From: Eledone cirrhosa
Lineage: Eukaryota
Reading direction: 5' to 3'
Length of the DNA stretch: 64,000 nt
Assembly: GCA_964016885.1 (NCBI GenBank)
Contig: CAXHJY010000525.1
Coordinates: 62,001 to 126,000, forward strand
In this document: in pieces, positions 8,792 through 9,824 of the stretch
Position numbering within the stretch: the first letter of the stretch is position 1
How the letters are laid out: each line of letters begins with the position of its first letter
Program-made: the position numbers and the translations under genes
The notes under the pieces: generated by a model
What the model saw: the letters and a program-made list of their open reading frames with translations, nothing else
What the model was told of the DNA's origin: nothing
Database searches by the model: none

Positions 8792-9171
8792 TAGGACTAT
8801 ATAAATATATAGGACTATATATATAGGACTATATATATATATATATATATATATCATCATCATTTTACGTCCGCTTTTCCCTGCTTGCAAGGGTGGGACG
8901 GGTCTTATTCAGCACAGCATCTCTCCACTCGTCACGGTCCTTCGTCATCTCCACCGTGAGCTTCAATGATCTGAGGTCTGTTCTCACCACCTCCGCCCAT
9001 GTTTTTCGTGGTCTACCTCTATATATATATATATATATATATATATGTGAATATAGACATAGAATATTCGAAAATATTCTGTATGTTTATAATAAACATT
9101 TTGAAGACCTAATCGCTATAGAATAGAATACGTCACGTATTACAATTAGATTCTCGATAAAAGCAAGGGAA

Positions 9172-9214
9172 GTAATCTACGCGTTTCATTCTTGTTAGAA
9201 ATCTTCAGGACTAC
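9172..9214 (-). ncRNA. Type I hammerhead ribozyme (inverted copy of 9565-9607)
   Basis: Exact reverse complement of the + strand motif. Confidence 0.85.
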
Positions 9215-9564
9215 ATATCCAGTGCTTTTATCGAGAATGACACAGCTAGAGACTTATAGAATACTTAGCTGTGTACAGGAACTGGTTTGAAAGAGCGGTT
9301 GCCGGTCCGGCAGAAATTAGAAATTGGAATAAATGCTCTGAAATAGCGATATATATGTGAATATAGACATAGAATATTCGAAAATATTCTGTATGTTTAT
9401 AATAAACATTTTGAAAACCTAATCGCTATAGAATAGAATACGTCACGTATTCCAATTTCTAATTTCTGCCGGACCGGCAACCGCTCTTTCAAACCAGTTC
9501 CTGTACACAGCTAAGTATTCTATAAGTCTCTAGCTGTGTCATTCTCGATAAAAGCACTGGATAT

Positions 9565-9607
9565 GTAGTCCTGAAGATTTCTAACAAGAATGAAACGCGT
9601 AGATTAC
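9565..9607 (+). ncRNA. Minimal type I hammerhead ribozyme
   Basis: GUAGUC-CUGAAGA-u-UUCU-aaca-AGAA-u-GAAA-CGCG-UA/GAUUAC. Stem I is 6 bp, stem II is 4 bp, stem III is the palindrome ACGCGU, and the cleavage triplet is GUA. Confidence 0.87.
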
Positions 9608-9824
9608 TTCCCTTGCTTTTATCGAGAATCTAATTGTAATACGTGACGTATTCTATTCTATAGCGATTAGGTCTTCAAAATGTTTATTATAAACATACAG
9701 AATATTTTCGAATATTCTATGTCTATATTCACATATATATCGCTATTTCAGAGCATTTATTCCAATATATATATATATATATAGGACTATATATATATAT
9801 ATATATATAGGACTATATATATAT

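What the first reader, a model, noticed from the sequence alone, without database searches (positions are those of the whole stretch)
9041..9766. 310-nt retrozyme footprint: tandem and circularly permuted inverted copies imply a circular RNA template
Seen: the left arm (9041-9451) is 1.3 units with period exactly 310 and a single difference between rounds (gaagacc vs gaaaacc). The right arm (9448-9766) is one inverted unit plus 9 nt that begins and ends at a different point of the circle. There is one hammerhead per unit. The left arm starts at the unit's own internal ATATAT run, abutting the genomic (TA)n, and the inversion junction has microhomology (tatt[a/c]caatt). Inference: RT was primed by a TA end annealed to a circular or multimeric RNA, copied more than one round, then switched template. 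The near-identity of the copies suggests a recent event.
Basis: partly seen in the sequence, partly recalled or inferred. Interest (0 to 1): 0.88.

Follow-up and report, generated by a model that had tools for sequence, protein, structure and literature searches.

The report
Ribozyme RNA circle copied from both ends
This is one of more than a thousand near-identical insertions of a 310-base ribozyme-type repeat, each built as two back-to-back arms that share their private mutations, which likely means that a jumping-gene enzyme copied one RNA circle round and round from both ends of a DNA break and likely wrote RNA edits into the genome as it did so.

Summary
Observation confirmed. The locus is one of about 1,200 young insertions of a 310-nt type I hammerhead retrozyme in (TA)n. 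Of 121 two-armed insertions with both ends seen, 120 have one arm starting at site A (~130) and one at site B (~165), none A+A or B+B. That is the ~35-nt 'tail' and inverted layout of Penelope-like elements (PLEs). Both arms share their haplotype in 115 of 117 insertions (shuffled mean 26), rare variants sit in every round of both arms, arms reach ~45 units, and the cleavage site is crossed 1,202 times without an indel. Best reading: a PLE enzyme primes both DNA ends on one monomer circle and rolls. Template-level variants are A>G-rich (16 of 35, against 15 of 216 sporadic ones), recur at stem adenosines and never hit the core, which points to A-to-I edits fixed into DNA. Not shown: the RNA, cleavage, the partner PLE. 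A few loci fit multimer templates or conversion. The scan noted a look-alike in another genome, there judged a truncated PLE; here no longer element is attached.

The parts
9020..9038 (.). left (TA)n target, primer of the A arm
   Evidence: sequence; 262 of 264 outer ends have (TA)4 within 30 nt
9039..9451 (-). A arm, 1.33 units; ribozyme sense is the - strand, so the + strand is the inferred first cDNA
9039..9048 (-). initiation site A (monomer 130-139, internal AUAUAUAU run)
   Evidence: 59 ends map at 130 and 42 at 139 among 264 outer ends
9172..9214 (-). type I hammerhead motif of the left arm, predicted cut after 9178
   Evidence: reverse complement of 9565-9607
9416..9416 (+). sporadic one-unit variant (monomer 72C>T, round 2 only)
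9448..9451 (.). inner junction of the two cDNAs, 4-nt microhomology
   Evidence: 70 of 126 junctions overlap by 1 nt or more, the rest are blunt or carry inserted bases
9448..9766 (+). B arm, 1.03 units; ribozyme sense is the + strand
9541..9629 (+). long stem (9541-9556 with 9614-9629) that extends hammerhead stem I; holds the recurrent A>G sites 9550, 9567, 9621 (all unedited A in this copy)
9565..9607 (+). type I hammerhead motif, core CUGAAGA 9571-9577, palindromic ACGCGU stem III, predicted cut after 9601
   Evidence: core never changed in 40 template-level variants
9660..9746 (+). hairpin module just 5' of and around site A, kept in two sister families with a changed stem and loop; candidate enzyme-binding element (inferred)
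9732..9766 (+). 35-nt 'tail' between site A and site B; site B is 9766 (monomer 165)
   Evidence: 105 ends at 165 and 20 at 167; tail as described in PMC11167929 and 10.1101/2021.04.23.441226
9767..9826 (.). right (TA)n target with GGAC interruptions, primer of the B arm

Best explanation
This is a two-armed insertion of a non-coding 310-nt hammerhead-type repeat into (TA)n, likely made when a Penelope-like reverse transcriptase primed both ends of the cut DNA at two fixed sites on one likely circular monomer RNA and copied it round and round. Steps: (1) tandem arrays are transcribed, self-cleave and are ligated to 310-nt circles (inferred from other retrozymes; not shown here). (2) An autonomous PLE protein, possibly a dimer, binds the hairpin-and-tail module and cuts both strands of (TA)n (inferred). 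(3) One DNA end starts cDNA at site A, the other at site B 35 nt away (shown as fixed A+B ends). (4) Each cDNA runs past the cleavage site for a variable number of rounds (shown), on the same template sequence (shown by shared variants; 'one molecule' is inferred). (5) The two cDNA ends join by short microhomology or with filler bases (shown). (6) Changes already on the RNA, many likely A-to-I edits, appear in every round of both arms (pattern shown, cause inferred). Later mutation and local duplication add one-unit variants.
For: Ends: 120 of 121 two-armed insertions with both ends in view are A+B, 0 A+A, 0 B+B. Offset and inverted layout match the PLE tail (passages) and the two adjacent internal start sites with extension of both strands shown in vitro for an anole PLE. 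Three young autonomous PLE families of this genome also end at two fixed points beside (TA)n, about 39, 42 and 56 nt apart by reading. One template: arms concordant in 115 of 117, shuffled mean 26, max 39; rare variants in every round of both arms, e.g. 88A>T 11/11 + 13/13, 51delTC 3/3 + 19/19. Monomer bottleneck: 39 haplotypes among 142 arrays, each nearly homogeneous, while one-unit variants are shared between loci no more than chance (7 seen, 6.5 expected); 88A>T is in 1 of 14 units at L203 and fixed in L102, L204, L206 on the same background. No stop at the cut site: 5 of 273 inner ends lie within 5 nt of it, 0 indels in 1,202 crossings. Either arm can be far longer than the other (L080 1.2 vs 27 rounds; L084 3.2 vs 19), so neither was copied from the other. 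RNA-level origin: template-level variants break 0 confident pairs and 0 core bases (40 variants), sporadic ones 43 and 12 (249 variants); A>G is 16 of 35 independent template-level substitutions against 15 of 216 sporadic (Fisher 5e-8).
Against: No RNA was seen and cleavage was not tested; the monomer hammerhead fold scores +2.1 kcal/mol and stem III is a palindrome, so cleavage may need a dimer, and the anole PLE used uncleaved RNA in vitro. No autonomous partner with matching sequence was found in three families. Three insertions share a one-unit variant between arms (L089 round 1/round 1; L226 1/3; L203 1/3), more than my hand estimate of about 0.1-0.2 by chance; these fit multimer templates or gene conversion. 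L218 (276A>G in 7/7 of one arm, only rounds 5-6 of 6 in the other), L248 and L242 (haplotype changes after round 2) show that some insertions used more than one template or were converted. Repeated variant sets inside arms (L031, L046, L050, L100) show later DNA duplication, so arm length is not purely rounds of copying. The L203 'parent unit' may be a recurrence on a common background.
Confidence: 0.75

Rival explanations
1. Same PLE twin priming, but the usual template is an uncleaved linear multimer (or a multimer circle) transcribed from an existing array.
For: Weak stem III; the anole PLE needs no hammerhead cleavage in vitro; L089, L226, L203 share one-unit variants between arms; dimer circles are reported for axolotl (passage).
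Against: It cannot turn a new change or an edit in one unit into a variant present in all rounds of both arms, yet 36 independent fixed origins were counted; one-unit variants are not inherited between loci; no two loci were seen to carry a parent's inversion junction.
Confidence: 0.12
2. The template is a cleaved linear monomer and the enzyme jumps from its 5' end back to its own 3' end each round (a circle held by protein, not a covalent one).
For: It would also give homogeneous arms; template change happens (L242).
Against: Jumps should leave stops or indels at the cleavage site: 5 of 273 ends near it, 0 indels in 1,202 crossings.
Confidence: 0.05
3. Short insertions were later expanded and homogenised at DNA level by unequal crossover and gene conversion, as proposed for vertebrate retrozyme arrays.
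For: Local duplications exist; C14 near 25.03-25.30 Mb holds higher-order repeats of an older haplotype; L218 could be conversion near the junction.
Against: DNA-amplified copies on C14 look different: one strand, broken units, recurring variant sets. Dispersed insertions keep 249 unhomogenised one-unit variants while others are fixed out to both outer ends, and the fixed set is strand-biased A>G and structure-keeping, which DNA processes do not predict.
Confidence: 0.04
4. One enzyme primed by TA annealing copied a circle and then switched template, giving freely permuted ends.
For: Site A is an AUAUAUAU run complementary to a TA primer; microhomology at the junction.
Against: Second outer end is fixed at 164-172 and always pairs with an A end; both arms read as cDNA extending from their own flank.
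Confidence: 0.03
5. It is the 5'-truncated tail end (pLTR) of an autonomous PLE, as another locus in this scan was judged to be.
For: Same layout as PLE insertions; L078's single arm abuts an assembly gap followed by a PLE fragment.
Against: All of the first 100 B ends on C1 lead into the 310-nt unit itself, arrays reach about 45 units, and inner flanks of 16 single-arm cases share no common element at the junction.
Confidence: 0.01

Closest known systems
Metazoan non-LTR retrozymes (Cervera and de la Pena 2020, PMC7229834; review PMC7761336; Li et al. 2026, 10.64898/2026.07.22.740005)
   Same: 150-450-bp low-GC tandem unit (310 nt, 34% GC), one type I hammerhead per unit, non-coding, strongly self-paired; U.U at the base of stem II and a palindromic weak stem III as in the axolotl motifs.
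   Different: In the parts I read, circle-templated multimeric cDNA and a PLE partner are proposed, not shown from insertion anatomy; inverted twin arms, fixed A/B ends and edit-like fixed variants are not described; Li et al. invoke local amplification for the arrays. RNA circles and cleavage were shown there, not here.
Endonuclease-positive Penelope-like elements (Craig et al. 2021, 10.1101/2021.04.23.441226; Arkhipova et al. 2013, PMC3846280; Frangieh et al. 2024, PMC11167929)
   Same: Tandem plus inverted insertion, 30-40-nt tail on one end only, two adjacent internal start sites, both strands extended, AT-rich or (TA)n targets.
   Different: No ORF; arms are many rounds of one short unit; the strict one-A-one-B pairing per insertion is measured here, whereas the in vitro work saw no difference in start site between strands; no sequence match to three autonomous families tested.
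Twin priming of L1 inversions (recalled, no call)
   Same: Two primers from opposite DNA strands, cDNAs joined by microhomology.
   Different: There the second primer site is variable and upstream on a linear RNA; here both sites are fixed, 35 nt apart, and both cDNAs cover the same sequence many times.

Membership tests
non-LTR retrozyme | type I hammerhead motif in each unit | tested here: met
   Core and three stems in sequence; below Rfam gathering score; core untouched in 40 template-level variants but hit by 12 of 249 sporadic ones
non-LTR retrozyme | short low-GC tandem repeat, dimers to large multimers, dispersed | tested here: met
   310 nt, 106 of 310 G+C; arrays of 1 to about 45 units on many contigs
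non-LTR retrozyme | non-coding, not part of a longer element | tested here: met
   one case (L078) unreadable at a gap
non-LTR retrozyme | highly self-paired monomer | tested here: met
   circular MFE -67.8 against -46.6 +/- 4.4 for 100 dinucleotide shuffles, z -4.8
non-LTR retrozyme | self-cleavage of the RNA | not testable with these tools
   needs a bench assay; monomer fold is marginal
non-LTR retrozyme | accumulates as circular RNA | not testable with these tools
   no RNA run listed; only indirect genomic evidence
PLE-mobilised element | 30-40-nt tail on one end, two fixed start sites | tested here: met
   modal ends 130 and 165; 120 of 121 A+B
PLE-mobilised element | inverted 5'-truncated copy and microsatellite target | tested here: met
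   128 of 144 insertions two-armed; 262 of 264 outer ends beside (TA)4
PLE-mobilised element | terminal sequence shared with an autonomous PLE | tested here: inconclusive
   no match in three young families; other PLE-like families in the loci not followed to their ends
autonomous PLE | RT plus GIY-YIG ORF | tested here: not met
   no ORF in or attached to the arrays
ADAR-type A-to-I editing substrate | strand-specific A>G in duplex RNA, 5' U/A preferred, 5' G avoided | tested here: inconclusive
   A>G excess and strand bias met; 7 of 10 sites in confident pairs; 5' neighbours U5 A3 C2 G0 fit but are not significant alone; no RNA-DNA comparison possible

The most novel reading that the evidence does not exclude
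Each insertion is a tape recording of one RNA circle read by two Penelope-type enzymes at once, and A-to-I edits made on the circle are written into germline DNA in every round, so RNA editing is a main source of heritable change in this element; L218 would then record a switch from an unedited to an edited template in the middle of one insertion.
Probability: 0.5. Interest if true: 0.87.

Novelty: new variant of a known kind. Interest (0 to 1): 0.72.

Why it matters
Two open questions meet here: whether animal retrozymes really move through RNA circles with PLE enzymes, and how PLEs make their tail and inverted layout. This family is young and numerous enough that insertion anatomy answers both in part: it carries the PLE start-site signature without an ORF, and variants fixed across both inverted arms argue that arrays are born multimeric from one monomer rather than grown by unequal crossover. 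It supplies a 310-nt substrate, two mapped start sites, a (TA)n target and intact candidate enzymes in the same genome for a rolling-circle target-primed assay. If the A>G signal is editing, it is a countable case of RNA edits entering the genome.

Tried and rejected
Rfam: no hammerhead at curated thresholds. Expression: no RNA holder listed; not evidence either way. The unit assembles as a 340-nt self-closing contig in 4 of 4 runs laid, but tandem DNA gives the same, so this says nothing on circles. Horizontal transfer: 20 runs under 17 organism labels hold the unit; three low-depth runs tested (X2, X7, X11) also hold this genome's high-copy short repeat (67, 119 and 7 contigs, against 35,113 in X3), so trace carry-over explains them; the other labels were not tested. 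Partner search: tail-motif variants (74 hits, 30 read, all retrozyme copies), three PLE families, flanks of single arms: none found. Empty site: three other hits of the left flank are copies of a common repeat, not this locus. Target-site duplications could not be scored reliably inside (TA)n; a few look real (L032, L043). Periodic variants as dimer or trimer circles: rejected for L031, L046, L050 because the period breaks. Selection alone as cause of the A>G excess: it predicts mostly C>T in G-C pairs (expected A>G share 0.26; seen 7 of 7 sites), with the caveat that G-C to G.U costs more stability. One search was a script error, rerun.

Full report
Observation. The described anatomy is exact: a left arm 9039-9451 of period 310 with one difference, and a right arm 9448-9766 that is the exact reverse complement of the circular unit. 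Monomer coordinates below start at the predicted cut (position 1 = window 9602). The hammerhead is type I with core CUGAAGA, a U.U at the base of stem II and a palindromic ACGCGU stem III; Rfam scores it far below threshold. The circular monomer folds at z -4.8.

The family. The window lies in a 3.0-Gb genome. A 40-nt core stretch has 843 exact hits, but that is one haplotype: the B-end-plus-TA pattern has 1,197 hits and the A-end pattern 570 on the forward strand (its reverse count is double-counted). I read 144 insertions: all of the first 100 B ends on C1, plus loci picked by identity to the window's unit or core. Left out before counting: L049 (gap), L100 (overlaps L101) and an older-family copy in L074. 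The identity-picked loci inflate the window's own haplotype (45 of 142).

Ends. 128 of 144 insertions have two inverted arms; in 7 one end lies beyond the fetched stretch; of the other 121, 120 are A (about 118-139) plus B (about 156-172), one is B plus position 74, none A+A or B+B. Three of the 16 scored as single-armed have a very short arm of the opposite type. 262 of 264 outer ends lie beside (TA)n. Inner ends are spread round the unit, 5 of 273 near the cut site, and 1,202 crossings of that site show no indel within 2 nt. Site A is complementary to a TA primer, site B barely so. This is the PLE signature: a 30-40-nt tail on one end and an inverted truncated copy (passages of 10.1101/2021.04.23.441226, and PMC3846280), explained in vitro by two adjacent internal start sites with both strands cut and extended (PMC11167929, parts 1-2 of 4). 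The genome holds intact young PLE-like ORFs (784, 777 and about 1,280 aa) whose copies also end at two fixed points beside (TA)n, but none matches the unit in sequence.

Template. In 115 of 117 insertions where both arms cover the ribozyme, the arms carry the same fixed variants; shuffling arms gives 26 on average, 39 at most in 500 shuffles. Rare variants occupy every round of both arms. There are 39 haplotypes in 142 arrays (which adds 6 loci picked by variant), while one-unit variants recur between loci at chance level (7 against 6.5, first 78 insertions). Variant 88A>T is fixed in L102, L204 and L206 and present in 1 of 14 units of L203 on the same background; that unit is only a candidate parent, since the background is common. 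Arms exceed one round in 248 of 273 cases and reach about 45 units, and either arm may be the long one. A new change can fill all rounds of both inverted arms only if one monomer sequence is read repeatedly from both ends, which is what a circle offers.

Edits and selection. Of 40 distinct template-level variants none breaks a confident pair or touches the core; of 249 sporadic ones 43 and 12 do. After setting aside backbone sites 3, 284, 287, 294, 295 and three markers of an older lineage whose direction is unknown, 16 of 35 independent fixed substitutions are A>G against 15 of 216 sporadic ones; A>G to T>C is 16:5 against 15:33. 276A>G (context UAG, stem I) is fixed on four backgrounds, 259A>G on three, 20A>G on two. 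Pair-keeping C>T changes, which selection alone would favour, were not seen. ADARs need duplex RNA, prefer a 5' U or A and avoid 5' G (passages of PMC9638939); the ten sites have 5' U5, A3, C2, G0, which fits but is weak alone. I infer A-to-I editing of the template; no RNA was available to show it.

Results against. L218, L248 and L242 are not single-template; L089, L226 and L203 share a one-unit variant between arms. These are a minority and fit dimer or multimer templates, template change, or later conversion. Repeated variant sets within arms and the C14 higher-order repeats show that DNA-level duplication also acts. Cleavage may be weak.

Sister families. An older family of 321-nt units (1,332 first-look candidates, 30 read) keeps the hairpin, tail and A/B ends but has a different hammerhead with core UUGAUAA; a third fragment in L037 has a canonical core. 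The inner hairpin changes stem and loop together between families, which suggests that shape is what the enzyme reads (inference from three sequences only).

Known work. Non-LTR retrozymes and their circles are known, and copying of circles by a PLE is proposed (PMC7229834, passages and Discussion; PMC7761336, passages). A 2026 preprint links them to PLE termini by phylogeny, invokes local amplification and leaves the mechanism open (10.64898/2026.07.22.740005, parts 1 and 3 of 5 and passages). I found no report of twin A/B arms, cross-arm fixed variants or edit-like fixation in retrozymes in six searches of an open-licence library; subscription papers and all supplements were not seen and may bear on this. 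An earlier scan note (e1-7908855) judged a similar-looking locus in another genome to be a truncated PLE; I tested that reading here and it failed.

Verdict. A new variant of a known kind: an ORF-less hammerhead retrozyme with the full PLE insertion signature and strong genomic evidence for a monomer circle read from both DNA ends (0.75), with likely RNA edits fixed into DNA. Interest 0.72.

Noticed in passing
window 57113-57270: A second, different hammerhead-like element as a short two-armed inverted insertion (cores CUGAUGA and CUGAAGA on the two arms); related sequence is frequent in the fetched loci (up to 73 hits per 200-nt bin).
   Followed up: no
L109-L138 (e.g. L138:1522-1842): Older sister family, 321-nt unit, about 95-98% alike between copies, same hairpin-tail module and A/B ends, hammerhead core variant UUGAUAA.
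   Followed up: partly
L037:356-575: Third related family fragment with canonical CUGAUGA core and the same hairpin shape.
   Followed up: partly
L209-L211 (G000 C14, about 25.03-25.30 Mb): Higher-order repeats of an older haplotype, one strand, broken units, recurring variant sets: a retrozyme insertion apparently turned into DNA satellite.
   Followed up: partly
L169-L202: At least three young PLE-like families with many intact ORFs (784, 777, about 1,280 aa), each with two fixed ends beside (TA)n; the 784-aa family showed no convincing hammerhead in the 1.4 kb scanned behind its ORF.
   Followed up: partly
L085:4099-4371: 273 nt of unrelated sequence captured between the two arms.
   Followed up: no
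L218, L242: Haplotype changes part-way along an arm (276A>G only in rounds 5-6; 294T for rounds 1-2, then 284T+287A), possible template change during one insertion.
   Followed up: partly
window 8628-8742 and 9823-9935: Two copies of a common short repeat flank the insertion region, with TA/GGAC arrays beside them.
   Followed up: no
window 50841-54951: 39-nt tandem array, 105 copies, 94% matches, extreme strand skew.
   Followed up: no
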